Assembly: GCA_000165345.1 (NCBI GenBank)
Contig: CM000431.1
Span: 992,001 to 1,056,000, forward strand
Direction: 5' to 3'
DNA: 64,000 nucleotides
This document shows positions 4,170 to 64,000 of this stretch, one piece after another. A model generated the notes under the pieces. The model did not search any database. It saw only the letters and a program-made list of their open reading frames with translations, and was not told where the DNA came from. Each line of letters starts with the position of its first letter. The first letter of the stretch is position 1. The translations under genes and the position numbers were made by a program.

Positions 4170-4205
<36 letters not shown>

Positions 4206-41267: not shown

Positions 41268-44200
41268 TTAAAACTCTTGGGATAAAATATTTCGTGAGAT
41301 AGCAATTGGTAATTTGTATATACTTAGGTTATCTTGATTAAGCAAATCATCTGTGCTGTTAAGCATTGTAAAGCCTCTAGGGACGTACTTATCAATTCTG
41401 TAGGCTCTATTAGATGCTTTGGACTGTATTGCAATCATAATTTGAGGTGCTTTGTTTAAAAACTTAATAGATTTAATAAATCTATCATATGAAAAATTCT
41501 CCAAAGTATGGATAACTTTTTCAATCCATTGGAATGGAAAATCAGTACCTTCAATAAATGTAAAGAATAAATTTGAAAAAAGCTCAATTTTATTAGGAAG
41601 ATTTTTGAATTTATTAATACAGTCCCTCTTAACTTTGTAGAAGAAGCTCTTATCAATAATGAATGGTGTCTCGAAAATCTCTTTTATAAATACAATAAGA
41701 AACTCAGAAAGACTTACTATATCTTTCGAGTAAGATTCGACTTGGACGACTGAAAAAGTAAGAGTAGAGTAATAAGATGTAGAAAAGACTACAACTGAAT
41801 AGTTTTTGTTTGAAATCTTCTTTAAAAATTTACTAGCCAGATCTGACAGTATAATACTTAAGAGAGTTACTAATGAAATAGTGAAAGGTGTCTTTGTTCC
41901 TATAAATAAGGCCAATGATGAAATTGACTTTTCTTCATCAATACTCGAGTATTCAAATCTATAACTTTTCCAAAGTCTAATAGGAAGGGTAGTCAAATCC
42001 AAAACCTCATAACTGTTAAAGTAATTTTCTCCTGCATGATAAATAGGAACAAGCATATTCTTAATAGAGTATTCTTTAGATTCTTTCCTAAAAGCATTTT
42101 TAAGAAGCTCATGATCCACTATTTCTGCATTATACTCATTAACTGACAAAGAAATAATACCTGAAATTATGATATTTCTTCCAAGACAATCCAGAAATTC
42201 ATTAACAACTAATCCAGCTTCAAAAGGATCAATATTGTTCATAAATAAACCCTCAACTTGTCCTTGCTTTGCAAAAAATTCACTTAGCTCTATAATATCC
42301 CGATAACTTATGTATTTGAGCTCATTTAATCTATCAAAAGGAGATAATGACTGATTTTCTGTGACAGATCGTAAAATTGTCAAAGATTTTATGATTGACG
42401 GAGTAAAGTAAACATATTGATATAAATATCTATTTACATGTTTGAATGCATCCTCAAATTGTTCAAGTGTGAAATATTTGTTTGGATGACTAAGATGTTT
42501 TGCAAATATTCTCAAAAACTTAGGAAGAACATCATGGAATCCTTTTAGGTGGATTTCAAACCCATTTGGGAGACCATTATAAGTGTAATCGTTGAAACTT
42601 GAAATCTTAAATTCATTCCTCGCAATTCTAAAGTCATATATTTCATCCTCAAGAGAATTATTTAATAAAACACAAAGGATTTCAATTGCCACTACTAGTC
42701 TTGGTAGTACTTTTAGTACTTTTGGATGTCTTCCTATTTTTGAATTGATATTTGGGGTTAGAATCCTGATTAAAATTGAAACCTCGGGGTAGGATTGTTT
42801 AACTGAATTCTTATAATAGAAGTAGACTATGTTCGAGTAAAAGTCAAAACGCTTAATATTCGCTTCATTTGATTCTTGTTCTATATTCTCACCAACAATA
42901 TTCTTAAGCATATCATTGCTATGCGTAGTCTCAATATCGGTCAAATTTTGGTAAATGCTTTTTGCAAGCTCTGAATTATTGTAGAGCTTATTTATTAATG
43001 CTCCTTTCTGATTTAAATCTGAATAATGACTTGCATCACTTTCATACCAAAAATTATATTTATTAATAATATCATTTTCCATAGAATTGAAACTTCTTAT
43101 GTTTTTATTCATGAATCTTTTAATACTCAGTATTAAAGGTTGAGGAACTATTTTTGTATCTTCATCACTTGGTCTTAAAGATAAGTCAAAAGGAGTGTAT
43201 GGGTTAAGAGTAGAAATATCCAAATTATAAGTACTTTTAATTGCAGAAAGTGATAAATTGTAGATATCTTCAAAGAATTCGCTGGGAAATCGATTAACAC
43301 AATAATCTGTGAGTAGATTCTTTGATTTGTAAACCATGTTACATTCAACAAAAGAATTTTCCTTGTTAATTTCATCAGACTCTTGATCAGAGTTTCCTTT
43401 GCCTATATCTTTTTTAATACTAGTATCTTCAGTCTGGAGTTCCTTCTGGAAAATAAATGTTAAAATTTTTATCAAGTATTGCTTAATTGTATTGTAAACC
43501 CATAGAATAATTTGAGTTACATCTCTTTTATTATTTTTAGGAGATTCAATACCAGCTGGGGTAACATTAGAGTTTAGTACATTAAATCCTCTAGAATAAA
43601 AGCTTGATCTAAATACTTTATGGCTACCTGTAATTTTTTTAATTAATAATACAGGTGTAAAAAAGAATATAGAAACTTGATCAATTTTTATTGAGCTAAT
43701 AAAAGCTTTAATAAATGAAATATCAACAATTTCCATAACTTCATCTGCATATATAATTTCCTGAGGTTTAATTCTGTATTTGCTAGCTTTGTAAACTATA
43801 TTATATGCAAGGTCTCTAGTAAATTCGGTCTCTCTATAATTGAAAATAATATCTGCTACATTTTTCGCCTCTTCTACAATTCTTTCTGATACTGGCAATT
43901 CAATGATATACTTTACTGCTGATATGACTGCTTTAACTAAATTCCACGAATGTCTTAATTGACTATTGTAGAGATCTATTGATATATCCAATGTTGAAAA
44001 CCCTTCATAATTTACTACTCCTACCTTAATTGGGTTAGAAATTCCAATAGACTTTAAGTATTTGCGTAATATTCCCTTATAATTTCCATCTAAAAGATAT
44101 TTAATATACATAGTAGGGATCCTTTTCCAATTAACAACTTGTATTTCAATTGGAAATCGGAGGTTGATTGTGTTAATCCCAGTTTTTTTAAATCTCCGTA

Positions 44201-45137
44201 TAGTCACAATGTTCTTTGAGATTCTAATGAAAGGGTTTACAATATATTTATAGCTATCATCAATTCTCACTATATTAAAACCGTTACTTTTAATATGAGC
44301 AAAGTTTTGAATTACATATTTTTCCAATTTGTCAAGAGGTTCTCTTCCAACTATAGCAAGTTTCATGTTATTAGGTGAATAGAATTTTGAGAAATAGTGA
44401 CGAACTTTTTCATAGATCTCTCCTTCTGATAGATGTGGGTTATTTAATAGAGTATTTTTATTTCCATAATAGAATGTGTCAAATTTAGCATTTAAGCCAA
44501 TTATTTCTCTTTCTATTTCTCTTTTTGCCCAGAACTCATTTCTTTTCATTCTATTTAACTGGCTAAATATTGTTAGCATTGCTTTGTTAATAGTATCATT
44601 ATTCAACAAAGGACTATGGAAATAGCTACTAAATCTGAATATGCTTTCACTAAGGTATTCAGTGCCTATTGTAAATGAATATACTGTAGATTTTTCATGA
44701 AGGTCCAAATACATTCTTCCATTCAACAGCTTTATAAAGTTATGGAACTCATTTATATTTGGATATTGATAAGAAGCCAGCAAAAGGCTATATTGTACTA
44801 AATTTGACAATCCAATAATTTTTGGAGGGTCGTAAAGAAACCCGACATCAACTAAAATTGCAACTTCAGACTTTTCTGCATCTTCTTTGCTTACTAAAAA
44901 AGCCTTCAAACCATTTTTCAATTTAATATAGCGATATTTTGCTTTATCAACTCTGGATTTTATAAATTTATCGTCATCAATAACTGATTTAATGTGTGGG
45001 CTCTTAGAATCGTAATTATGAGCCTGGCTTGAAAATGAAAAGCTTTTCACACAGTTTTCAGAATTATAGTAATTAAAGTTTAATGACAATAAATAAACCA
45101 ATCCAAAAAGAAATAGAAACTTCAAACTAATGAACAT
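41268..45137 (-). CDS. insulinase-like (peptidase M16A, insulysin/IDE-like) secreted protein, paralogue 1 of a tandem array; catalytic HxxEH motif lost (NLVQY)
   Basis: Signal peptide MFISLKFLFLFGLVYLLSL. YRYIKLKNGLKAFLVSKEDAEKSEVAILVDVGFLYDPPKIIGLSNLVQYSLLLAS aligns with IDE [55 protein letters not shown]. The C-terminal VPRGF motif is shared with the other paralogues. Confidence 0.8.
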   Translation of the reverse strand: MFISLKFLFLFGLVYLLSLNFNYYNSENCVKSFSFSSQAHNYDSKSPHIKSVIDDDKFIKSRVDKAKYRYIKLKNGLKAFLVSKEDAEKSEVAILVDVGFLYDPPKIIGLSNLVQYSLLLASYQYPNINEFHNFIKLLNGRMYLDLHEKSTVYSFTIGTEYLSESIFRFSSYFHSPLLNNDTINKAMLTIFSQLNRMKRNEFWAKREIEREIIGLNAKFDTFYYGNKNTLLNNPHLSEGEIYEKVRHYFSKFYSPNNMKLAIVGREPLDKLEKYVIQNFAHIKSNGFNIVRIDDSYKYIVNPFIRISKNIVTIRRFKKTGINTINLRFPIEIQVVNWKRIPTMYIKYLLDGNYKGILRKYLKSIGISNPIKVGVVNYEGFSTLDISIDLYNSQLRHSWNLVKAVISAVKYIIELPVSERIVEEAKNVADIIFNYRETEFTRDLAYNIVYKASKYRIKPQEIIYADEVMEIVDISFIKAFISSIKIDQVSIFFFTPVLLIKKITGSHKVFRSSFYSRGFNVLNSNVTPAGIESPKNNKRDVTQIILWVYNTIKQYLIKILTFIFQKELQTEDTSIKKDIGKGNSDQESDEINKENSFVECNMVYKSKNLLTDYCVNRFPSEFFEDIYNLSLSAIKSTYNLDISTLNPYTPFDLSLRPSDEDTKIVPQPLILSIKRFMNKNIRSFNSMENDIINKYNFWYESDASHYSDLNQKGALINKLYNNSELAKSIYQNLTDIETTHSNDMLKNIVGENIEQESNEANIKRFDFYSNIVYFYYKNSVKQSYPEVSILIRILTPNINSKIGRHPKVLKVLPRLVVAIEILCVLLNNSLEDEIYDFRIARNEFKISSFNDYTYNGLPNGFEIHLKGFHDVLPKFLRIFAKHLSHPNKYFTLEQFEDAFKHVNRYLYQYVYFTPSIIKSLTILRSVTENQSLSPFDRLNELKYISYRDIIELSEFFAKQGQVEGLFMNNIDPFEAGLVVNEFLDCLGRNIIISGIISLSVNEYNAEIVDHELLKNAFRKESKEYSIKNMLVPIYHAGENYFNSYEVLDLTTLPIRLWKSYRFEYSSIDEEKSISSLALFIGTKTPFTISLVTLLSIILSDLASKFLKKISNKNYSVVVFSTSYYSTLTFSVVQVESYSKDIVSLSEFLIVFIKEIFETPFIIDKSFFYKVKRDCINKFKNLPNKIELFSNLFFTFIEGTDFPFQWIEKVIHTLENFSYDRFIKSIKFLNKAPQIMIAIQSKASNRAYRIDKYVPRGFTMLNSTDDLLNQDNLSIYKLPIAISRNILSQEF

Positions 45138-45488: not shown

Positions 45489-48400
45489 TTATGCATCAAT
45501 CAATCTAATAGGGATCCTAATAAACTTGCAAACACCAGAACTAGTTACCTGGTCTAAGTCTTTAATACTAACAAATCCTGAGGGAATATAATTTTGTAGC
45601 TCTTCCCATTTCAAATTTTCTAAATCTTGTTGAGTTGCAATCAAGAACTTTTGCGAACTTAGAATTAAATTAAATGTATCAATAAATGTTTGAAAATCCA
45701 ATTTTTTCAAAGATGGCTTTATCTCTCGTAAAACATTAAATATGCTTATCCTGGAAGTTATTTTAAATAATAGTCTTGATTCGTAAGACCCAAGCTCAGA
45801 CCCTAAATCTTCATTCAAAAGTATTTTATTCTTTGCTTGGTCAAATATCTCTTTTCGAATATTTGTAATAAAAGTGATAAGATTATAAAAAATATCTAAA
45901 ACCTTTTCAGAGAGGACTGAAACATTGTCTAGCCCTGATAATTTAATAGCCAGTCCAATATGTAAAGCTTCATTAACATTTGGGAAAAATTCAATTTCTG
46001 CTCCAGATAAAGAAAGCTTTTCATTGAAAATGGTAAAAATATATTCAAATACGATTTGGAATGCAACTGATTGTGAATTAAAGTATGAAAATGGAACATA
46101 TAATAGTGAATTTGAGTTCAAAGAATTATTTAAGCTTATTTTATTTAAATAATAATAGTTTGTGGTAATTCGACAACAAAGAGGATCAATAACTTTCCAA
46201 GTTTGAATGGAGCTTTTAATGGGGCTAAGTTTCGAAGAAACTTGATTGTTCTTGCCACTTTTATTACGTATTCCTGACGTGAATTGATTCAATATTGTAT
46301 AAGCCTGAACTGGATTTGCGTTTCCAAGCAATGCGCCTTCCAATGATCCATTATTACATAATAGTAAGGACAGTTCCAAAATTTGTTCAAGAGTAATTGA
46401 ACTGTAATCGCTTTCCAAAGATAAAATCGATGTTTTCTGCTCTTCAAAAATTGATTTCAAGAATAACCGAGATACTTCGCTCAAACTTCGATGAATATTC
46501 TCAGATTTGACTTTGTTTTGAATAGCTTGTTTAATCTCTTCAAACTTTTCCTGAGAAATGATTCTGTTCAAATGAAGGATTTTTTTAGATAATGATCTAA
46601 TAGCTAAAAAAATTGAACCTAAGAATCCTTTGATTTTGATTTCAACTCCAAAAGGAACTCCACCAAGTTCTGATTTCAGGATACTTGAAATCAAAAAGAC
46701 TCCTTCAATGCTTTGCATTTGATTAATTATATCTCCAGCTGAATAATTAATACAAGCAACTAAAACTTCAAGTGATAAAATTAGATCTTTGATGGATTTA
46801 GTATGTACCAAATCAATAATAGGTCTGTTTAAAACACTTTTATTGTTTTCAAGCTTTTTTGGTTCTGGAAGCATTATTCTAAGGAAGAATGTTGCAGAAG
46901 GAGCCTGGTAATTTATGTTATTGAAAAAAATAAAGCTGCTATATACTGGATAATTAATATTGTCTTTAATCTTTTTATGAAGACTTTTAAACTTTGGTGA
47001 ACTTTCTGTTGATAAGTAATCTAAAACTGCATTTTTTAGAATTGTAGGTGTGTATATTCGATAGCTTGCACTGCTTGAAAAATTTAGTAAGGGAGTGTTA
47101 CCCAGAAGTTTGTTTCTTTTCCTGATTCTGAACTCAATAGACTTTGCACGAATCTGGCTAACTGCAGAATTTACTTGGGTGAAAAATTCGGCAGAGATCT
47201 TTTCTACAATGTACTTATTATTGAATATTGGGCAAGTTCTAAACTCAATATCCTTGTCTTTAGAACTGATCAATTTTGAACTTGGATTGGTCTCAATCCT
47301 CTTCTCTTGTTCCTGTGCCTGTTCTTGTTTCTGTACCTGTACCTGTTCTTGTTCTTGCTCCTGTCCCTGTTCCCGTTCCTGTTCTTGTTCCTGTTCCTGC
47401 TCTTGATCCTGCATAAAATTAAGTTCATGTTCTTGTTTTAAATATGAATCTTTCTCAATTTGAGAATCATCGTTATCCTGGCCTTTGCTTGCCAATAAGG
47501 GATTATTATTCCTATTCGGAATTATAGGGTTATTATTTATAGGAGTATTTACATTCAATTCTGGAATAATACCCTGGTCTTTATTCAATATACCAAAATT
47601 ACCTTTATGAAAATCCGTGAGTTTTACAAAAACGAGCAAATTTTCTATAGAAATTTTATTCAAAAATGCAGAAATCTCTTCAAAGCTTGAATCCCTTATA
47701 AGATTTCCAGCAATAAGAACCTCCTCGGGAGAGCATCCCTTAATATCAAAAGAATCAATAATCTGTTTAGATATCTGCCTTGGAGAAACATCAAAATAGT
47801 AATCGAACTTGTATTTGAGTATCTGCTTGATCTCAGCAAGAATCTCTTGATTTACGGGAGAAGATTTAATATGTTCTAAAGCAATAAAAGTTGTCTGAAT
47901 AATTGATTTAATCTTATCAATTCCTTTAGACGTAAGTAAAAACCTGATTTCAAAACTTGAAAATGAGTACCTGTGAGAATTGGTTACTGCATCCATCTTT
48001 GAGATCCATCCTTTTTTTATAAGAAAATTGCTCAAACTCTTCTCAGAATTATCTTTGAGTAAATATTCTAAATAGGAACTTGGAGAAGAATCCCAAAGAA
48101 CTTCCTGATAATCTATGGGAAACTCGAGAATTAGCTCATTAATAGAATGAGCTTTAACATAAATAGCGTTTCCAACTACTCCAAGGTGAGGATGGCGAAC
48201 TATTTTTGCTAAGTCAAATGGAAGTGGATTGGAAATATTCAAATTCTTAACCAAAGAAAAGTTTAAAACTACTTCATTTGACAATTTAGCTATAGTATGC
48301 TTACTGGCTACGACTAGAGTCATAATACTAGAGCTGTACTGTTGATAATAGAAATTCTTTACTTGTTCAAGTAAGTTAATCTCTGAAATCTCTCTAGCTT

Positions 48401-49094
48401 CTTTAATTGATTTATCAGTAAGAACATTTAATCTCTTAAATATATGGTCATCCAAAGAAATGTCTCTTATAACACATTGAAACAAAAACTCACTATTATT
48501 CAGTAAGCTCTCAAATGTACCAGAATATTCTTTAGTCTTGGCAAAAAATAATTTCTCAGGAAATGAAGGATTCCTAATCATGTCGCTCAATCTGTCCAAA
48601 ACTGTTGAAATATATTGACTTCCAACCTTTATAGTAAATACTGAATTTCTCTCATAAACTTCCATGTCTATTTCTCCATTAATTGAAATAATAAAGTTAC
48701 AAAAATTGGAATGATCGAAAAACCGATAGGTTCCTAAACAAAGTGATTCTTGTACCAAACTTACAAGACCTGGAAGATCCTCAGGGTCCATAACAGATCC
48801 AACTCCAACAGAGAGAGTAATTATTGAATATTCAAAGTTATTATTTGATACAAGAAACACTGACATCTGATTCTGAAGTTTCATGAATTTATATGTAGAA
48901 CCATCTATCTTTGATTTTATAAATGATGAGCTCTCTACCTCGCTTACTGTCCTCCCTAGTTTTGTTATTATAGGCTTCGCCAAACATGAGCTAAACCTTG
49001 AGATAACATCAAGTTTTTTTCCATTCTTAAATTTCTTCGCCGAAAATGCTAACACAATTTGAGTAAACAACCAAAAAATATGCAATAGCCTCAT
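45489..49094 (-). CDS. insulinase-like (M16A) secreted protein, paralogue 2; HxxEH replaced by SLVQE; contains an internal (QE)n low-complexity insert
   Basis: Signal peptide MRLLHIFWLFTQIVLAFSA. YKFMKLQNQMSVFLVSNNNFEYSIITLSVGVGSVMDPEDLPGLVSLVQESLCLGT corresponds to the M16 active-site region without the His residues. The C-terminus has IPSGF. Confidence 0.8.
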   Translation of the reverse strand: MRLLHIFWLFTQIVLAFSAKKFKNGKKLDVISRFSSCLAKPIITKLGRTVSEVESSSFIKSKIDGSTYKFMKLQNQMSVFLVSNNNFEYSIITLSVGVGSVMDPEDLPGLVSLVQESLCLGTYRFFDHSNFCNFIISINGEIDMEVYERNSVFTIKVGSQYISTVLDRLSDMIRNPSFPEKLFFAKTKEYSGTFESLLNNSEFLFQCVIRDISLDDHIFKRLNVLTDKSIKEAREISEINLLEQVKNFYYQQYSSSIMTLVVASKHTIAKLSNEVVLNFSLVKNLNISNPLPFDLAKIVRHPHLGVVGNAIYVKAHSINELILEFPIDYQEVLWDSSPSSYLEYLLKDNSEKSLSNFLIKKGWISKMDAVTNSHRYSFSSFEIRFLLTSKGIDKIKSIIQTTFIALEHIKSSPVNQEILAEIKQILKYKFDYYFDVSPRQISKQIIDSFDIKGCSPEEVLIAGNLIRDSSFEEISAFLNKISIENLLVFVKLTDFHKGNFGILNKDQGIIPELNVNTPINNNPIIPNRNNNPLLASKGQDNDDSQIEKDSYLKQEHELNFMQDQEQEQEQEQEREQGQEQEQEQVQVQKQEQAQEQEKRIETNPSSKLISSKDKDIEFRTCPIFNNKYIVEKISAEFFTQVNSAVSQIRAKSIEFRIRKRNKLLGNTPLLNFSSSASYRIYTPTILKNAVLDYLSTESSPKFKSLHKKIKDNINYPVYSSFIFFNNINYQAPSATFFLRIMLPEPKKLENNKSVLNRPIIDLVHTKSIKDLILSLEVLVACINYSAGDIINQMQSIEGVFLISSILKSELGGVPFGVEIKIKGFLGSIFLAIRSLSKKILHLNRIISQEKFEEIKQAIQNKVKSENIHRSLSEVSRLFLKSIFEEQKTSILSLESDYSSITLEQILELSLLLCNNGSLEGALLGNANPVQAYTILNQFTSGIRNKSGKNNQVSSKLSPIKSSIQTWKVIDPLCCRITTNYYYLNKISLNNSLNSNSLLYVPFSYFNSQSVAFQIVFEYIFTIFNEKLSLSGAEIEFFPNVNEALHIGLAIKLSGLDNVSVLSEKVLDIFYNLITFITNIRKEIFDQAKNKILLNEDLGSELGSYESRLLFKITSRISIFNVLREIKPSLKKLDFQTFIDTFNLILSSQKFLIATQQDLENLKWEELQNYIPSGFVSIKDLDQVTSSGVCKFIRIPIRLIDA
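47286..47412 (-). repeat. imperfect hexanucleotide (CTGTTC/CTGTWC)n coding repeat giving QEQEQEQEQEREQGQEQEQEQVQVQKQEQAQEQEK
   Basis: Directly visible tandem 6-mer repeats on the plus strand. They lie in frame inside paralogue 2. Confidence 0.85.
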
Positions 49095-53934: not shown

Positions 53935-56900
53935 TTAAGTAATAAAATTGTTTTCAATTGCGATCTTTTTTACAATACTTGTTGAGTTTATTCTGTTAAA
54001 CCCTTCTAGTTTGAATGAATTTGCTTCTGCCAATTCAATGGCTGAAACATGAGTCTTTACAATAGAAATAAGAACTTTAGCAGGTTTAACAAAAACTCCC
54101 CATTTGTTAAGGAATTCATTATAGTTAAGATTAAGTAAATATGCAACTTGAATATACTTCCAGTTTGGATCTGATTTTCTATCAAGTAGAGAGCCGGAAT
54201 ACTGATCAAGAAGTTCAACCATATTTATATGAGGAATTTCAATACTAGCAACAGCACGATTAACCCCTTTCTTGAATTCATCTCTGGAAATGAGAGGAGT
54301 GACAAGAGTAAAGTACTTATTATAGAATTGTACTGCCAAACTAGTTAACTTGATGATGCTATATTCTGGTGAGGAAATCATGATTTTGAGCAACAAATAG
54401 CTTGTTCCTATACTATAGGGAGAAATTGCAAACTCAGTTTTTGGATACTCTGAAGATGTAAACTCTTTGAATGCGTTTTTAATATCCAAGTTCACCACAA
54501 GCTGTAAAAATGCGAGCATTTCTTCTGAATATTTACCAACCTGGACTTCCATATATACAACAGAAAGATCTTCATTTGAATTAGAGCATTGCTTAAGATA
54601 AAATATATCCTTATATTCAACAGGCAAAGAGTCCATATTTATCCTATTAATCCATTTTCCTTTATAACTTCCTTCTGGTAAGAATGCTTTTTCTGAGTAG
54701 TCAGTAGTTGAGATTTTTCTTGTAGAGTTTGTTTCAGAGTAACTTTCATCATTACTTGTAACATAAACAATTGTATTATTGTTAAACTCTAATAACTGAT
54801 TTGAATTAGTTGAATTTAACTTATTTGTTAAATTGAAATCATTATATTCAATTATACTATCTTCTATATCAGCAAAGTTAGTGGAAACATTCAAAAATCT
54901 AAGGTTGCTTACATCGCTCACTGCTACAAAGTCTCTATTAAGCATTCTCCCAATCTTTAATAAGTAAGAGTTAACCTGCATTGGAGTACAGTTTCCAATA
55001 ACTAATGATTCAATGGAGCCCATTTTTATTATGTAAGATGCAAAATCGACAACATCTTTAAATTTAATACTTTTTAGAGCTTGAGAGAACATTGAAGGAG
55101 TCATCATATAAAAATTAAGAATTTCAAAAGAAGTATATTCTGCCAGAGTTTTGCTTTGTAGAGAGGAAATTTTATTTAGTATTAGCTGGAAATCTGACTT
55201 TGCATCATTAAAATGGTTCTTATTGACAAAAGTTCCATACTTTCTTAAGCCATTAAATACCGTTAAGAAGAAGTTATCAAAAGATGAAGTGTAATTCGTC
55301 CACTTAAATTCTATTCCCAAGAAAGAATTCTGAAGCTCTGAAATTGATTTATAATTACTTTCAACAATACATTCCCTGTATTCTGATGGAATTGCATATT
55401 TGAAGGACTTCATGAAAAGATAAGATAGGGTTACAAGCCTAGCATTTGTTTTTGGAAGAGATTGAAACCCATATACCACCAAAGATTTTGGCTGAATGAA
55501 AATTCTTGAGCTTAAGGAAATCTTTGGAACCCCAACATTAATAGGGAAGTAGAATGTGGAATAAGCAATTGGTGAAACAAACTCATTAAATCCTGATAAG
55601 ACATTATTCATTAGCGTCTCATCAATATCTTCCGTCGTATTTGATGTATATTTGATATAAGATGCCAAAGATTCAACCAAAAGTTTTGGATGCACTTGTG
55701 GAGGTATATCATAAGTATAGATTTTATATTGTTTTGGATAATTTATTACAATCTCAGTAATATTGAAACCCAAATGCTCAAATGCTAAATTCTTATTACT
55801 ACCTTCAAATACCTCTAAAGTCTTTGTTGGGATATCAGTAATTAAATAGTTTGCATTCAAGTATCTTTCTATTTTGAAATTTGGATATTCTCCAGGTTTT
55901 GCTCTCATAAATGACCTACGAATTATTCTCATGAATGACATAAACTTTCTAGAGAACCAACCCCATCCTGATTCACCATAAACTTCACTAGATAATAAAA
56001 AGTCTTTAGAGTTTCTATTAAATGAGCTAGATGAAAATGTAACTACCATATTAAATGGATTTAAATATTCTAATAGCATCCTTACATAGCCATGATTTAT
56101 AGCTTCAAGCTCATAAGGTACTAAAAGTACATTTTCTGGAGAACATTCACTTTCAAAAAGTGACTTTACGATATTCTTGGAGTATCTGTAATATCCTGTA
56201 CTTTTATACTGTTTGAGTATTCCTTGTTCTACACGTCTTATTTGCTCATTTAAATATTTATTATATCTTGCAGTCTTTACAGCATCTAAAGTTCCAAAAA
56301 TAGCTTGTATTACTCTAACTAACTTATCCCTATCAGAATCCACCAAAATTGCTTTTATAACCAAGTTAGAGAAACCTGTATCATGATTTACTATATCAAC
56401 CTCGATTTCTCTAACCCAGCCCAGATTTGTCATCTTATCCAAGAATCCATCATGGAATCGTTGAGTTAAGAAGTATTTGACATATGATCCTAACTTATAT
56501 TTCCAAAGCTTACTCTGATTTGGTATTGGAAATTCCATTGTAATGTATGCTTCTGGAGTTCGAGATTTAACTTCTATAAATTTCCCAATTAATGTATCAT
56601 AAGGGTGAGTCACATTTCCAGAAAACTCTTCTGGCTTTCCTGGAGTGACACCAGTACTGAATAAGTCAGAAAACTCATTTCTTACTAGCTCTTCTACAGT
56701 TTCTAGACTTAAACTAGTTGCAATACTTAACACCATTAAGTGGGGACTATAGTATTTTTTTTTAAACCTTATGGCTTCCTCATGAACTGAGAGATTATTC
56801 TTCGAAGGAATCTCTCTCAATGTTTCATTTGTGCCATATGGAAATCTATGGAAGGCATGAGAAGAATTTGAAAGTTCTCGCTTTAATTGTAGTTCTTGCA

Positions 56901-57807
56901 AAGAATCAACACGTTTAAATATTTCAGTCAGCTCTGTAACCTGAGAAATTGATTCGTCCAATGAACTCCAAGTAATTTTTGTCTTATCAAGTCTTTTTCT
57001 AAAAGCACTGACAGAAGACATGAAATACTTTGATTTAATATTATATGAGTAAATTGTAGAAAATTTGTTTGATTCAACATTAAAGTAGCCGTTGTTATCA
57101 TCCAAAAGTTTCCTAAAATCTGTGTCGCTTGTAACATTCTGTTCTTTTTTAAACAGTTCTTGTGTTATTAAATAAGATACGCCATCAATTCCTTTTGGGT
57201 CATGAGCACTCCCTACTTCTATTCCCAATGACAAAGAGGATGTGTAAAGTAAACTGTTTGATACCAAAAAAACTTTGAGTCCGTTATCTAGTTTGATATA
57301 TCTATACTTATTTTCATCACCAAAATATTTATTAAATTGATCATTATCAATTAATGTTTGGTATCTTAAAGGGCTCTGATTTTCTTGAAACTCTTCTTCA
57401 TTTATCAATTCATCCATTGAATCTAGGCCATATAAACAGTTCAATCCATAAAAGCATTTTTTTCCACTTTCTTTTAATTTCAAATACTCTTCTTCTGAAT
57501 GAAGCCTCTCTTTAAGGTTCTGTAAATCATTAATATCCGTTTGATTGAAGATGATATTTTCTGCAATATCATCTATATCTGTAACGTTAATAAATAACTT
57601 ATCCAAATCGAATTGATCTATTGGGTTTCCTTTTTCATCTGTAATCACCTCTATAAGACTAATTTCAATAGGATGCCTTGATCCGGCCTTTTGGCTCAAG
57701 CAAATTAGAACAAATAAAGCCCCTGCTAAAACAAAGAGCCTCTTCAAAAAACACATAGTTTGATAAAAAAGTTTAAATAATGAATGTTTATTCATTTGAA
57801 ATACCAA
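53935..57807 (-). CDS. insulinase-like (M16A) secreted protein, paralogue 4 (1290 aa); HxxEH replaced by SYLITQE
   Basis: Signal/anchor MNKHSLFKLFYQTMCFLKRLFVLAGALFVLICLS. YRYIKLDNGLKVFLVSNSLLYTSSLSLGIEVGSAHDPKGIDGVSYLITQELFKK. KYYSPHLMVLSIATSLSLETVEELVRNEF aligns with IDE [29 protein letters not shown]. Confidence 0.8.
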   Translation of the reverse strand: MVFQMNKHSLFKLFYQTMCFLKRLFVLAGALFVLICLSQKAGSRHPIEISLIEVITDEKGNPIDQFDLDKLFINVTDIDDIAENIIFNQTDINDLQNLKERLHSEEEYLKLKESGKKCFYGLNCLYGLDSMDELINEEEFQENQSPLRYQTLIDNDQFNKYFGDENKYRYIKLDNGLKVFLVSNSLLYTSSLSLGIEVGSAHDPKGIDGVSYLITQELFKKEQNVTSDTDFRKLLDDNNGYFNVESNKFSTIYSYNIKSKYFMSSVSAFRKRLDKTKITWSSLDESISQVTELTEIFKRVDSLQELQLKRELSNSSHAFHRFPYGTNETLREIPSKNNLSVHEEAIRFKKKYYSPHLMVLSIATSLSLETVEELVRNEFSDLFSTGVTPGKPEEFSGNVTHPYDTLIGKFIEVKSRTPEAYITMEFPIPNQSKLWKYKLGSYVKYFLTQRFHDGFLDKMTNLGWVREIEVDIVNHDTGFSNLVIKAILVDSDRDKLVRVIQAIFGTLDAVKTARYNKYLNEQIRRVEQGILKQYKSTGYYRYSKNIVKSLFESECSPENVLLVPYELEAINHGYVRMLLEYLNPFNMVVTFSSSSFNRNSKDFLLSSEVYGESGWGWFSRKFMSFMRIIRRSFMRAKPGEYPNFKIERYLNANYLITDIPTKTLEVFEGSNKNLAFEHLGFNITEIVINYPKQYKIYTYDIPPQVHPKLLVESLASYIKYTSNTTEDIDETLMNNVLSGFNEFVSPIAYSTFYFPINVGVPKISLSSRIFIQPKSLVVYGFQSLPKTNARLVTLSYLFMKSFKYAIPSEYRECIVESNYKSISELQNSFLGIEFKWTNYTSSFDNFFLTVFNGLRKYGTFVNKNHFNDAKSDFQLILNKISSLQSKTLAEYTSFEILNFYMMTPSMFSQALKSIKFKDVVDFASYIIKMGSIESLVIGNCTPMQVNSYLLKIGRMLNRDFVAVSDVSNLRFLNVSTNFADIEDSIIEYNDFNLTNKLNSTNSNQLLEFNNNTIVYVTSNDESYSETNSTRKISTTDYSEKAFLPEGSYKGKWINRINMDSLPVEYKDIFYLKQCSNSNEDLSVVYMEVQVGKYSEEMLAFLQLVVNLDIKNAFKEFTSSEYPKTEFAISPYSIGTSYLLLKIMISSPEYSIIKLTSLAVQFYNKYFTLVTPLISRDEFKKGVNRAVASIEIPHINMVELLDQYSGSLLDRKSDPNWKYIQVAYLLNLNYNEFLNKWGVFVKPAKVLISIVKTHVSAIELAEANSFKLEGFNRINSTSIVKKIAIENNFIT

Positions 57808-58326
57808 GGAAAATGCTTTGTCGTTTATTCTAATAATTAAACGCCCAACAATTTAAATGAACTTCTTCATTTCAATTAAAATTCAAGTTTAGCATTCACT
57901 GCCTATTATTGGCCTGATTAAAATTCCATTTATTTATTAACCTGTTGTTTTTCCTGATTTTACTATTCATATCCCACACCCCCACAAATATTTACAACTT
58001 GATCAAATCTCAAGTTAATTCTCACAGGGATTTCTAATACAAATTCTGATACCTAAATGATTTTTCTATTTTATCATTTTCTTGTAAAAATTGAATTTTA
58101 TTTAAATCATAAAATCTGTATCTTTCTATTCCATTTAAACCCTAATTTAGGATTGCTCGAATGCTCATGTATCCCGCCAACAAACAATTTCAAGATATCT
58201 AAGGAATCAAAAGGTGAAAAAATAAAAATTATTCGGAGAGGGAATTTCTAAATCATTAAGATTTGTATGTTTATCGCCTACTAAATTTAAGTTTTCTTAT
58301 AAGTGTTTGAACCCTTGAAAAAGAAC

Positions 58327-61300
58327 TTATGTGTTAAATATATCTTGCTGCTCGTTAATGTCATAAAGACTTTCTGCAAATAAAAGTTTGGTAAACCCTT
58401 GAGGCAAATATGACTCAAGGGACTCAAAAAGTTCATAGTTTGTGTTTTGTGATTGATATGAAATAAATAGTTTTGATGAGCTACCGAAATACTGCCAATA
58501 TTTATAAAACTGGTCAAATGTTAAAGCATCAATAAATTCTAAATAATCTTTTTTCCATGAGCAAGAAAAGTGGGTATGTTTGGAAGCTCCCATATGTAAA
58601 GATGCTAGTGTGAATAAATCTTCTGACTCCGACCCTTCGTAGTATATTTTATTGGTTTTTGATGTGATTTGGCTGCCAAGGTTGTTTTCTATTAATCTTG
58701 CGTTTCTGGAAAGTAATAATAAAAATTCTTTGGCTTTATTAAACCCTGACCTAGAAATCATCTTTGAAGGCCTGGAATAATATGTTAGGAAGAAATTGTT
58801 AAGGAGCTCGCCAAGTTCTCTAATGTTTTTAGTTGGGGACTGTAGCTTGAACTCAAGAACTAAATATTTACCAAGTATTATTCTAGGGAGCACTTTTAAA
58901 GAACAATCTGGACAAACTTTATCTGAGAACTCTATAAAATACTTATATGAATTGAGCTCTGAAACTATTTGAAGGAATGCCAAGTTCTGCTCGCTATAAA
59001 ACCCATAATGAATTTGGAGGAGAACCATATTATCCTTGCTATTTTTGCTTGAATTAATGTAAAAGAAGTAAGAATTGCTGTAGTTGTATGGCAATCTACT
59101 CATATCACTGAATGAATTTCTTGTGTATCCAAGATTCTCAATATTCATAGCATTGTATGTGTTTGTATGAGTAGCTCCATTTGGCTTTCCAATTTGATTA
59201 TTATTGTCGCTTTTAAGATCTTTAGATGTTGATTTTTTGCTTCCAGATCTAAGCATTCTTCCTTTCTCTTCAAAGCTAAATTCTTCAAATCCAAGAGTAT
59301 TAAAATCTTCATTTATGTCTGAATTGACTTGTTTTGTTGAATTGAACATATTTTCCGTTGTGTTCAAAGAAAGCTCTAAAGATGAACTGTCCATTCCTCG
59401 AATGGTATTTACAAAACTGGATAGGTAATATTTTATTTGTATCGGAGTTGCATTTCCAAGTACTGATCCTGAAATTGAGAAGTTTTTAATAAAAAAGTTA
59501 GCAAAATCAATGAGGCTTTGAATGGTTATTTTGGACATTTCATCTTCTAGCCTGCTAATTTTCATAAATCCTGGGTCAAGCAACTGGTAGGAAAGCGAAA
59601 GAAGTCTGAGATTATCATTTTCTGACTTGAACGAATTAATAATATCTTGGAAACGTTGTTTGGCATTCTGAAAGCTGGACTGCTTAATAGAAGTTTGGAA
59701 TGTGGATAGAATATTTGCAATCTCATTCAAACTGTCGGGAAAAATAGAGGAATAACCCCTCCAACTAAATTCTATGCCATAGAAGAACTCTTGTAGCTCC
59801 CAATGGTGATAACTTCTTTCAAAAGAAAAGTTCTCATTTAGGTGGCTAGGCAAAACATCGTAAAGGGTATTTTGGAATAAGAACATTAGTATTGCTAGCT
59901 TTTCTGGGCAGCTGAATTCTTTTGGAGGATTGCTCGGGACCTGAAGTCTTACAGAAATCATTACATCAGGATTGAATGATGTCGGAAGGTAACAAAAACT
60001 TCTTGAAATTGAATCCATTTTGTTTGTACTTAAAGCAACTACCAAATCTCTTGGATTTATTGGAGTTGATAAATTTAAATAAGAAAAGTCCGTAGAATTA
60101 TTGGAAGCTTCTGATAAGCTTATTTCAGTAAGATTTTTAGCCTGTTTAAACTCTTTAACTGCATAGTAGAGAGGAATAGGAAACTCTTTCTTGGGAACAT
60201 CTTCCGTATAAATAACGAAATTTCTCGGGAATTTGGGGTCTATTTCAGGCATTTGTAACTTTAAAATATCATTAGCCAACGTGGAATTAACAGACTGCAG
60301 TACCTCAATGACTTTACTTGGAATGTCCTCTAATAAATATTCTCCACCTAGGTATTCCTCTTTCAAAAACTTCGGAAATGTGCCTACTTTTGTCCTATGA
60401 AAAGCTGTGTTTACACTTCTGAAGAAGGAAGATATTGACTTTCTTGCACTCTTCCACTTACTATCCAAGAAAAATTGACTGGAAAGGAGGATATTGGAAG
60501 CACTCTTTTTGAATTCTTTCTTTTCAAGAATCAATATTAAATTATCATACTTCATATGGTCTATTATCTCCTTTACATGATTAAATTCTATCTTATTCAT
60601 TGATACTCCTGCATGTAAAACTTCTGGAGGTGAACAGTTCGTTCTCAAAAATGTGTTAACAATTTTTCTGGATAGATCTGAGTAAAGAGAATCAATAGAA
60701 GCCTCTAAGATTGATTGTCTCTTCTTTCTGATCTGATTAATTATTGTTTCTGAAATGGAAACTTCTTTAATCAGTTTTAGGAAAGATAAAGTGATCTCTA
60801 AAATCTTTACAATGGCTTTTTCACCTTTAGAGTTTAACTTAAATCTAATAATAAAGTTTGAAAAACCATTGTCATTTACCTCAATCATAGTCTCTAAGCC
60901 TAATATTATTCCAATTCCCTTTAAATAACTGTAAAGACTTTTATTTGAATAATCTGTAAAGAAGAATGAAATATACTCAGCAGGTTTGTACTTCCAAAGT
61001 GGGCTCTGGTGTGGAATAGGGAATATCACCGTAAAATAAGTGTTTTCTTCCGCAGATTTTACCTGTATTACTTTATTATTTAAATCAATATAAGGATGAA
61101 TGATTTCATTTGAAAGGTCAAATGGAGTAATTAGTTGTTTGCTCTGGTTTGGAATTTCATCAAAAAATGTTCTTGCAAGACCTTCAAGCTCATCTATGCT
61201 TTTATCTGAAACAATTGAAATAGTCATCAAATTTGAACTGTAGTAAGAGCCGTAAAACTTAATTAGTTCAAAAAGAAGAGCTTCTGTATCGAAATCTATA

Positions 61301-62100
61301 TTTGCCATCAACCTTTTCATATTGCCCATATGAAAACCATGGTTAACATGGCCTTCAACAGAAAGTTCCTTAAGAATTTGTTTAAGTTTTATAGAACTCA
61401 TACCCATTAAGGCTTCAAAGTCTGATTGCAATGCTTCCATTGCTGGGTCTAAATGAATTCTTTTGGGGCTAAAACTTTTCAAGTAAGAACAGAATTTTAT
61501 TAGTGCTTCAGAAAAATACTCATGCTTGATAGATAGATGGTATTCCGTTAAAAATGGAGCAACTTTAGTCTTGAAAATCCCAGAGTTACTGGAAATAAAA
61601 AGATCATATGGTGTCTCCCTGCCAACATCAGGCCTCTTCCAATCGTAAAACAACAATTCACTTAATAAAGTTGCCAAGCCTGGGAATTTCTTAGGTTCCA
61701 TGGAGCTACCCACTCTAACCCCTAAAGTAATTGAAGAAAATAAACTGGATCTCTGTGATACAAGAAAAACCTGAATATCATTTTTTAATCTAATAAAACT
61801 GTATTTGTTTGAATCCTTGACTGATTTTATAAAGTCTTCATCGTAGAAACGGCTATAAGCATCATTAATGTTCTTTTTAGCTCGATATTCTGATATTCTA
61901 TTCATTCCCCCTATATAATATTGACCATCCAGAGCTAAAGAGTCGTTCTTTATCATTCTGGTACTTGATTCTACCAAAATATCACTAAAAGATGAATTGT
62001 TTGCTGTTAATGCAATATTAGAAGCTAGACATCTCTCTAAACTAAGAGAAAGCTGAACTAAAAGTCCGAATAAAAATATTTTTGAGGTCATTTTTACCAA
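58327..62100 (-). CDS. insulinase-like (M16A) secreted protein, paralogue 5 (1257 aa); HxxEH replaced by TLLSE
   Basis: Signal peptide [111 protein letters not shown] aligns with IDE [48 protein letters not shown] aligns with FPIPDLQKYYKSNP. The C-terminus has LPQGF. Confidence 0.85.
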   Translation of the reverse strand: [1257 protein letters not shown]

Positions 62101-62578
62101 CTTCTGATCAATTTCTTAGAAATCCCTAATTTATAATCAGATCTTTAAGTTATTTAAAAGTTATATACAGAATGGTGAATTCTAAATAGCTAATTTGCAT
62201 CCAAATCTTTCTTAATAGTTTGCATGGATGAGCCCAAAGTGGTTGCAGAAGACTGCTGAATTTTATTCAACCAGATTCACTAATATTTAATTACTTTTTT
62301 AAAATAATATTTTCTTTAAGGACAATTTTTCTTGGTGCCTCTCTAATCCTAAATTACCGCTGGAAAATATTAAAGCTTCAATAATTAGAAAAAAAATGCT
62401 AAGAAAATTAGTAATAGATGTAGAGTAAATATTATCTAATTAACCTAATTATAAAATAAGGTCTTTCTCACGAAAACATAGAGAAAATACTATCATTCCC
62501 AGCAAGTTATTGGGAGGAGCACGTTTGAACCAATTATGCTATTTACAAAAAATCGGTGAATGCCCACACATTAGCAAA

Positions 62579-62596
62579 GTTCCGCCAATTGGGGGA
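62579..62596. promoter_or_regulatory. E2F-like site TTCCGCCAATTGGGGGAG about 480 bp upstream of paralogue 5
   Basis: A CCGCCAA core like the other intergenic GGCGCCAA/TTCCCGCCAA sites in the window. Confidence 0.25.
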
Positions 62597-62753
62597 GTGA
62601 AAAAAAAATTGTATAAAAAGCTCAGTTCCAATAACTTAACAGAATAATTGACAATATTAGACTATAATTTGCATCATATGTATTGAAACATATGAGTAGA
62701 ACTTTTCCGCATTAACGGCAGAAAATGTAAGCATTATATTAATTTATATTTCT

Positions 62754-64000
62754 TCAATGTACGTTGAAAGAATCTTTGAATTGATAAATAGACTTGAGTC
62801 TAGTATATCCCTCAGGAACAAATTCTGATAGCTGATTAGACTGATCATCTTGGTTCCTGTTCGATTGAATTACGACTAAAATTGTAGGTGCGGTTCTGAA
62901 TGAGCTCCAAAGTTCAAGAAAACCTAAGTAGCAGAAACTTTGAAGTAAAACTGTCTCTTTTATCTGCCAATCGCTACCTAAATTTCCTCGAATGATCCTT
63001 TCGTAATGCATTTGAACGAGTTTACTAGGCTTTAGTGAGACCTTCTGAAGATTACTAAGCAGCATACTTTTCAAAGATAAGAAATCTCTTTTAGAAAAAA
63101 CTTTTTCTGGATTTAGGAAATAAATATCGAAAAACTCGAGAATAACATTTACCATGGGAATGATCTTATTAGAAAGGAATGTTACCTTAATTTGGAAGCT
63201 TGCAACATCGCGAGTAATAAACAAAGATCCAATTTGAATCGAAGAGTAACGAAGAGATTTTTTGTTTGCAATGAAGGAGTTCAAGACTTTGTGAAAATCC
63301 ACCAGCTCTAAAAGATCCAAAAGGACCATATTTCTCTCCGCATTCCCAAGGTAAATGTATAGTAGAACTGTATTGAATGGATCAGAGCTTGAAGCTCTTT
63401 GCTTAAAAAAGTAGTTTTTATGATACATAGAAGGAAGTAATTCCATATTAATAAATTTGCTATTAAATAAATTTCCTTTGTTTTCAGTATTCATTAGCAT
63501 AGGACCCATATAGCTCCGCTTAATCATTTCATCTGTTAAATCTTTATCAGATATCCAACCATAACTTTTAGTATCAAAAGCCATACTAAATTGTCCAGAA
63601 TTTATCTGCTTAAATGAATTTAACAAGCTAGCTGATGGTCTAATCATCTTTATGAATTTATTAATTCGAGCATAAATTTGGGACGGGGTAGTGTTTCCAA
63701 TGGCAACGCCATGAACTTCGCCATACTTAAGAAGAATTTTGCCAAAAAGTTTAACATCTTCAAGAGTTAAATGTTTGGCATCATTTTCTAATGACCACGA
63801 TTTAACACTTTCTAGATGCGTTATTTGCATTAATAGCATTAGAGAATAATCCTCGTTACTAGCATAGCTCAGTCTTTCTAGCAATTTCTTAAGTGCAGTA
63901 ATCGATTTTTGAAAATAACAATTAGTTATTATTGTTCTGTAATTGATTAAATTATGCGCAAAAACCATAAAGAAGTCATCAAAATATTTGGTAATACCAT
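62754..64000 (-). CDS. insulinase-like (M16A) paralogue 6, C-terminal about 415 aa only; the 5' end lies beyond the window
   Basis: The ORF stays open to the window edge. The C-terminal VPEGYTRLKS motif matches the [VI]P.G[FY] C-termini of paralogues 1-5. Same strand and same spacing as the array. Confidence 0.65.
   Translation of the reverse strand, partial: GITKYFDDFFMVFAHNLINYRTIITNCYFQKSITALKKLLERLSYASNEDYSLMLLMQITHLESVKSWSLENDAKHLTLEDVKLFGKILLKYGEVHGVAIGNTTPSQIYARINKFIKMIRPSASLLNSFKQINSGQFSMAFDTKSYGWISDKDLTDEMIKRSYMGPMLMNTENKGNLFNSKFINMELLPSMYHKNYFFKQRASSSDPFNTVLLYIYLGNAERNMVLLDLLELVDFHKVLNSFIANKKSLRYSSIQIGSLFITRDVASFQIKVTFLSNKIIPMVNVILEFFDIYFLNPEKVFSKRDFLSLKSMLLSNLQKVSLKPSKLVQMHYERIIRGNLGSDWQIKETVLLQSFCYLGFLELWSSFRTAPTILVVIQSNRNQDDQSNQLSEFVPEGYTRLKSIYQFKDSFNVH

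What the first reader, a model, noticed from the sequence alone, without database searches (positions are those of the whole stretch)
41268..64000. Head-to-tail array of six secreted insulinase-like (M16A) paralogues, all lacking the HxxEH zinc site
Five complete genes of 1091-1290 aa, plus a sixth truncated by the window edge, sit on the same strand with 350-850 bp spacers. Each complete copy begins with a hydrophobic signal peptide. Each aligns with insulysin/IDE across both M16 halves (YRxLxLxNGLxVxLVS...DP...GL..., YYSSNLM..., FPIP...). In every complete copy the catalytic HxxEH zinc-binding motif is substituted, and differently each time: NLVQY, SLVQE, RYFAL, SYLITQE, TLLSE. That is the pattern expected for long-standing, independently drifting pseudoproteases. 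It is not one recent inactivating event copied by duplication. Expanded insulinase-like (INS) families with inactive members are known from Cryptosporidium. This window appears to capture an INS cluster that is inactive throughout. Candidate roles are secreted binding, scaffolding or decoy proteins at the host interface.
Basis: partly seen in the sequence, partly recalled or inferred. Interest (0 to 1): 0.75.

Follow-up and report, generated by a model that had tools for sequence, protein, structure and literature searches.

The report
Known Cryptosporidium inactive insulinase-like gene array
This is the first half of the already described tandem array of insulinase-like (INS) genes near one end of Cryptosporidium parvum chromosome 3; the six copies seen here have all lost the zinc site, yet selection keeps them intact, so they are working non-enzymes and not decaying relics.

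Summary
Six same-strand (minus) genes lie at 41268-64000, and the sixth is cut by the window edge. Their products are identical to annotated C. parvum chromosome 3 'secreted insulinase-like peptidases'. All six lack both histidines and the catalytic glutamate of HxxEH: NLVQY, SLVQE, RYF plus a 3-residue deletion, YLITQ, TLLSE, ILLKN. None shows the distal glutamate at the aligned position.

1. The copies are not drifting. Each degenerate motif is fixed within its orthologue group across Cryptosporidium species. The NLVQH helix of copy 1 lies among the top 0.3% most conserved 15-residue windows. dN/dS is 0.11-0.34, against 0.15-0.24 for a neighbouring housekeeping gene.

2. The array is not inactive throughout. 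Just beyond the window, copy 8 keeps HFLEH and copy 10 (INS15) keeps HYLEH. Copy 9 is dead.

3. A single old loss before the duplications fits the tree as well as repeated losses do.

Predicted structures keep the full four-domain IDE clamshell.

The cluster (cgd3_4170-4280), and the fact that more than half of the INS family lacks HxxEH, have been published since 2004-2012. The finding is therefore already known. The likely role is non-catalytic peptide or protein binding in the secretory pathway; this is inferred, not shown.

The parts
41268..45137 (-). c1: 1289-aa secreted insulinase-like pseudopeptidase. By position it is the first gene of the array (inferred cgd3_4170; CPATCC_001446). Motif NLVQY in place of HxxEH.
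   Evidence: Exact match to EAK88952.1/QOY42769.1. Pfam M16 48 bits and M16_C 65 bits. IDE E = 9e-39. AF2 model pLDDT 68.5 with TM 0.78 to open IDE 7rzh_A. dN/dS 0.13/0.16.
45489..49094 (-). c2: 1201-aa paralogue (CPATCC_001447). Motif SLVQE. Contains a (Q/E)n low-complexity insert in the inter-half linker.
   Evidence: dN/dS 0.29/0.22.
47308..47411 (-). Hexanucleotide repeat (GGAACA on the coding strand) that encodes the Q/E-rich insert of c2.
   Evidence: TRF: period 6, 17.3 copies. c2 length varies between species: 1201, 1227 and 1253 aa. Whether the extra residues lie in this repeat was not checked.
49809..53066 (-). c3: 1085-aa highly divergent paralogue (CPATCC_001448). The motif region reads RYF followed by a 3-residue deletion that removes xEH. 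It is the fastest-evolving copy.
   Evidence: No Pfam or PDB sequence hit. hhalign against the c1 group: probability 94%, E = 1.3e-7. AF2/Foldseek match to IDE at 7e-30. dN/dS 0.32/0.34.
53935..57795 (-). c4: 1286-aa paralogue (CPATCC_001449). Motif YLITQ. Long N-terminal extension before the M16 domain.
   Evidence: dN/dS 0.11/0.16. Full-length similarity to c5: 375 bits.
58327..62091 (-). c5: 1254-aa paralogue (CPATCC_001453). Motif TLLSE.
   Evidence: dN/dS 0.12/0.13.
62754..64000 (-). c6: C-terminal 414 aa of a 1275-aa paralogue. Its N-terminus lies beyond the window. Motif ILLKN in the full protein.
   Evidence: Frame stays open to the window edge. Full gene read from L001:5511-9338. Motif.

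Best explanation
The region is the proximal half of the known subtelomeric INS array of C. parvum chromosome 3. The window corresponds to about 995-1059 kb of the 1.10-Mb chromosome. By position the genes are inferred to be cgd3_4170 to cgd3_4220.

Shown here:
- The six genes encode single-chain, four-domain M16A (insulysin-fold) proteins with N-terminal hydrophobic leaders.
- All six have lost both zinc-binding histidines and the catalytic glutamate. None shows the distal glutamate at the aligned position.
- They are therefore non-peptidase homologues (pseudopeptidases).
- They are old, stable genes under purifying selection, with orthologues across the intestinal Cryptosporidium species.
- The remodelled 'active-site' helix is among their best conserved parts.

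Inferred:
- They enter the secretory pathway.
- They work without catalysis by using the retained clamshell chamber to bind peptides or unfolded protein segments. They could do this alone, as holders or decoys, or as partners or regulators of the active INS encoded further along the same array (c8, INS15, INS16).
- The loss of the zinc site most likely happened once or a few times before the duplications that produced c1-c6. After that, each copy settled on its own fixed variant of the helix.
For: Identity: exact protein matches to C. parvum entries, and location on CP044420.1.

M16 homology: Pfam, phmmer to IDE at 9e-39, hhalign for c3.

Four-domain fold: the c1 model was built from an alignment without IDE-like sequences. 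It gives Foldseek E = 7e-41 and TM 0.78 to open-state IDE over about 1200 alignment columns. The c3 model gives 7e-30.

Loss of ligands.

[quoted passage not shown] Motifs are conserved within orthologue groups. The c1 motif helix is at the 99.7th percentile of conservation.

Expression: all 12 genes of the cluster are transcribed in vitro (PMC3305300).

One or a few old losses: the c4+c5+c6 clade has 100% bootstrap. The split {c1-c6} versus {active copies plus IDE-like outgroup} has 72%.

Active neighbours: c8 has HFLEH and c10 has HYLEH in C. parvum.
Against: - No experiment here or in the papers read shows binding, localisation or a phenotype for any of these six proteins.
- Signal peptides were judged only by a hydrophobicity heuristic and by database names.
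- The models have modest confidence (pLDDT 62 and 68). The c3 alignment included M16 paralogues, so its fold match is not fully independent.
- The 72% split appears only with the full-length alignment in a neighbour-joining tree. It disappears when the N-half or C-half is analysed alone (6% and 2%). The number of independent losses is therefore unresolved.
- c3 shows relaxed constraint (omega 0.32-0.43 in parts).
- The mapping to cgd numbers is by position, not from a record that carries those tags.
Confidence: 0.75

Rival explanations
1. The six copies are decaying relics of gene duplication, drifting neutrally towards pseudogenes with no function of their own. This is the strong reading of the first reader's 'independently drifting'.
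For: The canonical catalytic residues are gone and differ between paralogues. c3 no longer scores against Pfam M16 models. c3 evolves about three times faster than c1, c4 and c5.
Against: ORFs of 1085-1289 codons are intact in three species. dN/dS is 0.11-0.34, similar to the flanking housekeeping gene at 0.15-0.24. One-to-one orthologues are found down to 37-50% identity. Each degenerate motif is conserved within its orthologue group. All cluster genes are transcribed (PMC3305300).
Confidence: 0.03
2. Some copies are still metalloproteases that use a non-canonical metal site. For example, the Glu that replaces the second His in c2 (SLVQE), c5 (TLLSE) and c4 (YLITQ-E) might serve as a ligand.
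For: An acidic residue sits at or next to the H112 position in three copies. A Glu lies within one residue of the E189 position in c4. The helix is strongly conserved. The clamshell fold is retained.
Against: H108 and the general-base E111 are replaced in all six, by N/S/Y/T/I and by Q/T/S/K (or removed by the deletion in c3) respectively. No copy keeps even two of the four canonical residues in register. In IDE the single change E111Q abolishes catalysis (cited in PMC8092296).
Confidence: 0.04
3. Each dead copy is an obligate non-catalytic subunit of a hetero-oligomer with an active INS (c8, INS15 or INS16). In that complex it would supply substrate recognition, as alpha-MPP does for beta-MPP. 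It would not act as a free-standing binder.
For: Dead and active copies are interleaved in one array. Non-catalytic M16 partners that contribute substrate binding are established for M16B enzymes, and IDE itself works as a dimer (general knowledge of the family; review PMC12731061).
Against: The 12 genes fall into five different expression patterns and very different transcript levels (PMC3305300), which does not suggest fixed stoichiometric pairs. c8 lacks an N-terminal hydrophobic leader, so it may not share a compartment with c1-c6. These are full four-domain chains, not half-size M16B-type subunits.
Confidence: 0.15

Closest known systems
Cryptosporidium parvum INS family, chromosome 3 subtelomeric cluster cgd3_4170-cgd3_4280 (Abrahamsen 2004 genome paper as cited in PMC7225287; Mauzy 2012, PMC3305300; Xu 2021, PMC8092296)
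   Same: It is this cluster. The protein sequences are identical to annotated C. parvum entries. The tandem same-strand layout and the position near the chromosome end match. The published statements fit: 22 INS genes, only 10 with HXXEH, and more than half likely inactive.
   Different: Nothing differs in kind. This analysis adds per-copy motif states, conservation of each degenerate motif within its orthologue group, dN/dS values, and the order dead x6 / degenerate 558-aa gene / active / dead / active along the array.
Human insulin-degrading enzyme (IDE) and E. coli pitrilysin (MEROPS M16A)
   Same: Same four-domain clamshell fold in the models. Clear sequence homology over domains 1-2.
   Different: No HxxEH and no aligned distal Glu. 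A secretory leader is present. About 150-300 extra residues lie mostly in low-confidence inserts between the two halves. The C-terminal half is not recognisable by sequence.
INS15 (cgd3_4260), INS16 (cgd3_4270) and INS1 (cgd1_1680): active C. parvum INS with genetic phenotypes
   Same: Same family. INS15 and INS16 are in the same array, and they carry signal peptides.
   Different: These keep HYLEH or HLIEH (PMC6843835; PMC8092296). They have measured knock-out or active-site-mutant phenotypes (PMC11478815; PMC8092296). No comparable data were found for c1-c6.
Non-catalytic M16 proteins: alpha-MPP, and core proteins 1/2 of the cytochrome bc1 complex
   Same: M16 fold that has lost the zinc site but is kept for binding or structural roles. 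This is the precedent for a pseudopeptidase function.
   Different: Those are two-domain M16B-type subunits of defined mitochondrial complexes. c1-c6 are four-domain single chains with secretory leaders, and no partner is known.

Membership tests
MEROPS M16A (insulysin/pitrilysin) active peptidase | Sequence homology to Peptidase_M16 and Peptidase_M16_C (domains 1-2) | tested here: met
   c1, c2 and c4 score above the Pfam cut-offs for both domains. c5 passes M16_C, with M16 at 20.0 bits against a cut-off of 22.3. Full-length c6 has M16_C plus a faint M16 hit. c3 is placed only by hhalign at 94%, E = 1.3e-7.
MEROPS M16A (insulysin/pitrilysin) active peptidase | Single chain of four alpha/beta domains forming a clamshell | tested here: met
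   Predicted structures only. c1: Foldseek E = 7e-41, TM 0.78 to open IDE 7rzh_A. c3: E = 7e-30 to IDE and pitrilysin. c2, c4, c5 and c6 were not modelled; they align collinearly with c1 and c3.
MEROPS M16A (insulysin/pitrilysin) active peptidase | Inverted zinc motif HxxEH (two His ligands plus the catalytic Glu) | tested here: not met
   NLVQY, SLVQE, RYF plus deletion, YLITQ, TLLSE, ILLKN. No H..EH string occurs in any copy at the aligned site.
MEROPS M16A (insulysin/pitrilysin) active peptidase | Distal Glu zinc ligand (IDE E189) and E182 about 70-77 residues downstream | tested here: not met
   Replaced in all six in the alignments. c4 has a Glu one position away, so that copy is ambiguous. 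The active neighbours c8 and c10 keep both.
Cryptosporidium INS family, chromosome 3 array | Sequence identity to annotated INS proteins and position in the subtelomeric tandem array of chromosome 3 | tested here: met
   Exact matches for c1-c5. The locus lies on CP044420.1 at about 1.04-1.06 Mb of 1.10 Mb, and the array continues beyond the window. The cgd numbers are inferred from position, using PMC3305300 and PMC12688253.
Secreted protein (classical signal peptide) | Cleavable N-terminal signal peptide; localisation to secretory organelles | tested here: inconclusive
   A hydrophobic h-region preceded by a basic residue is present in all six, and the annotation names agree. SignalP was not available and no localisation data were found. 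The hyperLOPIT paper is not held.
Functional pseudoenzyme (non-peptidase homologue under selection) | Purifying selection and conserved orthologues despite loss of the catalytic residues | tested here: met
   dN/dS 0.11-0.34. Orthologues found in 5 to 8 further species or lineages. Motif helix conserved.
M16B alpha-subunit-like partner (alpha-MPP type) | Half-size (about 450-500 aa) two-domain subunit that forms a heterodimer with a catalytic beta subunit | tested here: not met
   The proteins are 1085-1289 aa with four domains. Heteromer formation cannot be tested with these tools.

The most novel reading that the evidence does not exclude
c1-c6 descend from one ancient loss of the zinc site and have since specialised as a set of catalytically dead 'peptide cages'. 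Each would have its own fixed version of the former active-site helix, tuned to a different ligand. They would be secreted at the parasite-host interface to capture host peptides (for example antimicrobial or signalling peptides of the gut epithelium) or to hold parasite effectors. They would not simply be silent partners of the active INS.
Probability: 0.12. Interest if true: 0.6.

Novelty: already known. Interest (0 to 1): 0.2.

Why it matters
INS genes are one of the very few expanded families in a 9-Mb streamlined parasite genome. They are repeatedly proposed as determinants of host range and virulence. More than half of them cannot be proteases, and what those copies do is still open. The cluster and the missing motif have been documented since 2004-2012, so the finding adds no new object. 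The useful point from this re-analysis is that the dead copies are constrained, with the remodelled active-site helix among the most conserved parts. That argues for a real non-catalytic function worth testing genetically, for instance by deleting the contiguous 23-kb c1-c6 block.

Tried and rejected
- c3 alone against the PDB sequences gave nothing relevant. A profile of the c3 orthologue group against the PDB gave only sub-threshold, collinear hits to pitrilysin (E = 0.08) and IDE.
- Pfam gave no hit for c3 or for the c6 fragment.
I walked instead through c5 and c8.
- The 558-aa gene between c6 and c8 could not be shown to be M16-related: hhalign probability 1.7%, E = 0.03, although the alignment is collinear.
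- The literature search for INS7-INS11 returned only unrelated papers.
- The spatial-proteomics paper (Guerin 2023) is not held, and the 2025 review has no supplements held. No localisation data could therefore be obtained for cgd3_4170-4220.
- Neighbour-joining trees on the N-half or C-half alone did not resolve the deep branching. No maximum-likelihood program was available.
- The 'decaying pseudogene' reading was rejected on dN/dS and ORF integrity.
- The 'array inactive throughout' reading was rejected after reading c8-c10.
Full report
**What is in the sequence**

The region holds six long ORFs on the minus strand. The organism is a eukaryote, so I used ATG starts:

| Copy | Coordinates | Length |
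|---|---|---|
| c1 | 41268-45137 | 1289 aa |
| c2 | 45489-49094 | 1201 aa |
| c3 | 49809-53066 | 1085 aa |
| c4 | 53935-57795 | 1286 aa |
| c5 | 58327-62091 | 1254 aa |
| c6 | 62754 to window edge | 414 of 1275 aa |

- The c6 reading frame is still open at base 64000.
- Spacers between the genes are 351-868 bp.
- G+C content is about 30%.
Three of its lengths were taken from non-ATG ORF starts.

**Identity**

- An exact-sequence look-up found all five complete proteins in public data. They are annotated as 'secreted insulinase like peptidase' of Cryptosporidium parvum: EAK88952.1, EAK89233.1/XP_626961.1, EAK88948.1, EAK88949.1/XP_626963.1, EAK88951.1; locus tags CPATCC_001446-1449 and 001453.
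- They lie on chromosome 3 (CP044420.1, 1,102,616 bp) at about 1.04-1.06 Mb. The window corresponds to roughly 995-1059 kb of that record.
- Upstream of the array, the window carries ordinary housekeeping genes: a cyclin, an MFS sugar transporter, a UBR-box E3 ligase, a P-type ATPase, an RRM protein and a zinc-knuckle protein.

**Homology to M16**

- By Pfam, c1, c2 and c4 pass both Peptidase_M16 and Peptidase_M16_C. c5 passes M16_C and falls just short on M16. c3 and the c6 fragment score nothing.
- c1 matches human IDE at E = 9e-39 over residues 47-488, which are domains 1-2 only.
- The paralogues are only 22-28% identical to one another. c3 is barely detectable by BLAST.
- c3 was placed in the family in two ways. 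A profile of its orthologues aligns collinearly with the c1 orthologue profile over 931 columns (hhalign probability 94%, E = 1.3e-7). Its AlphaFold model (pLDDT 62) finds IDE and pitrilysin as top hits over its whole length (E = 7e-30). The alignment used for that model contained M16 paralogues, so the fold match is supportive but not independent.
- For c1 I built the alignment without any IDE-like sequence. The model has pLDDT 68.5 and pTM 0.62. It matches IDE at E = 7e-41, and it superposes best on the open state (7rzh_A, TM 0.78, rmsd 7 Å).
- The full four-domain clamshell therefore appears to be retained. The extra length sits mostly in low-confidence inserts between the two halves.

**The catalytic site**

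Residues aligned on IDE G-L-S-H108-F-L-E111-H112:

| Copy | Residues at the HxxEH position |
|---|---|
| c1 | NLVQY |
| c2 | SLVQE |
| c3 | RYF, then a three-residue deletion that removes xEH |
| c4 | YLITQ |
| c5 | TLLSE |
| c6 (full protein from L001) | ILLKN |

- The positions of E182 and E189 are also replaced in all six. In c4 a Glu lies one residue off the E189 position, so that copy is ambiguous there.
- No copy keeps two canonical residues in register.

**N-termini**

- All six begin with a strongly hydrophobic 12-residue stretch preceded by a basic residue.
- No comparably hydrophobic 19-residue stretch occurs further in, apart from one marginal stretch in c1.
- The neighbouring zinc-knuckle gene has no such stretch.
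- This is a heuristic. It agrees with the database names but does not replace SignalP or localisation data.

**Are they drifting?** They are not.

- A word-based search with c1 returned one-to-one orthologues in C. meleagridis (93%), chipmunk genotype I (79%), C. ubiquitum (72%), C. canis (64%), C. felis (59%), and C. ryanae and C. bovis (47%).
- All of these read G-L-S-N-L-V-Q-H-S/T-L-L-L-A-S at the former active site. Only the C. parvum and C. meleagridis sequences have changed the last His to Tyr.
- That 15-residue window is at the 99.7th percentile of conservation along the c1 protein.
- A profile search of 1.84 billion representative proteins recovered more distant members of each orthologue group. 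They show the same pattern: c5 TLLSE/TLLSE/SLLSE, c6 ILLKN/VLLKN/HLLKN, c2 SLVQE/SLVQE/NFVQK, and c3 RYF/RHF/GHF, each with the same deletion.
- I fetched the syntenic loci of C. hominis and C. meleagridis and computed Nei-Gojobori dN/dS:

| Gene | dN/dS vs C. hominis | dN/dS vs C. meleagridis |
|---|---|---|
| c1 | 0.13 | 0.16 |
| c2 | 0.29 | 0.22 |
| c3 | 0.32 | 0.34 |
| c4 | 0.11 | 0.16 |
| c5 | 0.12 | 0.13 |
| flanking zinc-knuckle gene (control) | 0.15 | 0.24 |

- All ORFs are intact in the three species.
- These are constrained genes. c3 is the least constrained: 91% amino-acid identity to C. hominis, against 95-98% for the other copies.

**One loss or several?**

- I built a neighbour-joining tree with 200 bootstraps. 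It included the six copies, their distant orthologues, other Cryptosporidium-type family members and IDE-like outgroups.
- c4+c5+c6 (with three unnamed relatives) form a clade at 100%.
- With the full-length alignment, all six window copies fall on one side of a split from the HxxEH-bearing copies and the outgroup, at 72%.
- That split is not recovered from either half alone.
- A separate loss inside the HYLEH clade is well supported: P0059 with NLLKS, at 99%.
- The family has therefore lost the site more than once. For c1-c6, one or a few ancestral losses followed by divergence fit at least as well as six separate losses.
- c1 and c2 share LVQ. c5 and c6, like several unnamed relatives in their clade, share LL followed by S or K. 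This points the same way.
- No maximum-likelihood software was available, so this part remains tentative.

**Beyond the window**

Walking along the C. parvum chromosome gives this order after c6:

| Gene | Length | State |
|---|---|---|
| 558-aa gene | 558 aa | has a hydrophobic leader; relation to M16 could not be established |
| c8 | 1110 aa | HFLEH at residue 73, both distal glutamates kept, no hydrophobic N-terminus |
| c9 | 1198 aa | FYLMN, dead, no Pfam hit |
| c10 | 1172 aa | HYLEH at residue 114, all four Pfam M16 domains |

- By position and motif, c10 is INS15 (cgd3_4260; PMC6843835).
- A further copy follows (INS16 according to the literature).
- 'Inactive throughout' is therefore true only of the part that happens to lie in the window.

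**What is already published**

- Mauzy et al. 2012 (PMC3305300) described 12 consecutive genes, cgd3_4170-cgd3_4280, spanning 57 kb near the chromosome 3 telomere. They graded the conservation of the protease motifs and showed that all 12 genes are transcribed, with five different temporal patterns.
- PMC7225287 states, citing the 2004 genome paper, that over half of the INS lack HXXEH, are probably inactive, and may act in protein-protein interactions.
- Xu et al. 2021 (PMC8092296) counted 22 INS, 10 of them with the active site.
- A 2025 review repeats this and places 11 INS in the chromosome 3 block (PMC12688253).
- Functional work exists for INS1, 4, 5, 6, 15, 16, 19/20, 21 and 23. I found none for the six genes in this window.

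**Mechanism**

Shown:
- M16A fold.
- Loss of the metal and catalytic residues.
- Purifying selection.
- A conserved remodelled helix.
- Hydrophobic leaders.
- Transcription (from the literature).

Inferred:
- The proteins enter the secretory pathway and act without catalysis. They would use the retained clamshell to bind peptides or extended protein segments.
- I rate a free-standing binder, holder or decoy as somewhat more likely than an obligate partner of an active INS. The array members are expressed at very different levels and times (PMC3305300), and the nearest active copy, c8, lacks a leader.
- Residual non-canonical catalysis and neutral decay are both unlikely.

**Verdict**

It overstates drift and the extent of inactivity.
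- The object is already known, so interest is low.
- The constraint on the dead copies and on their former active-site helix is the one point that sharpens an open question.

Noticed in passing
window 47308-47411 (inside c2): A hexanucleotide tandem repeat (17 copies) encodes a Q/E-rich insert in the linker between the two halves of c2. The length of c2 differs between species: 1201 aa in C. parvum, 1227 in C. hominis, 1253 in C. meleagridis. Whether the extra residues lie in this repeat was not checked.
   Followed up: partly
window 49809-53066 (c3): c3 evolves much faster than its neighbours: 91% amino-acid identity to C. hominis and 80% to C. meleagridis. Its dN/dS is 0.32-0.34, rising to 0.43 in the N-half against C. 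hominis. It has lost all Pfam-detectable M16 signal. Relaxed constraint and positive selection were not separated.
   Followed up: partly
L001:3372-5048 / L006:13641-15317 (just beyond the window, between c6 and c8): A 558-aa protein with a hydrophobic leader interrupts the array. It aligns collinearly with the first half of c1, but without significance (hhalign E = 0.03, probability 1.7%). It may be the twelfth, 'non-peptidase' gene of the published 12-gene cluster.
   Followed up: partly
L006:10001-13333 (c8), 5872-9468 (c9), 1967-5485 (c10): Beyond the window the array alternates: c8 is active (HFLEH) and has no hydrophobic N-terminus, c9 is dead (FYLMN, no Pfam hit), and c10 is active (HYLEH, four Pfam domains, INS15 by position).
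   Followed up: yes
window about 57800-58330 (spacer between c4 and c5): The CPATCC locus tags jump from 001449 (c4) to 001453 (c5). The newer annotation therefore seems to place three further features here or nearby (possibly non-coding RNAs). No long ORF is present.
   Followed up: no
window 38138-39667 (+), overlapping 37426-39561 (-): A 509-codon ORF with a TTG start runs antisense to the RRM-protein gene, in a stretch with strong AT skew (-0.21). It is most likely a compositional artefact, not a gene.
   Followed up: no
protein P0061 (unknown organism): An 1835-aa relative appears to carry two M16 N-terminal halves in tandem. The copy aligned reads HLCQH: both histidines are kept and the catalytic Glu is replaced by Gln.
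   Followed up: no
c1 model m92dd2d5ba418: The AlphaFold model of c1 superposes far better on open-state IDE (7rzh_A, TM 0.78) than on closed IDE structures (TM about 0.55-0.60). Model confidence is modest, so this may not reflect a real preference.
   Followed up: no
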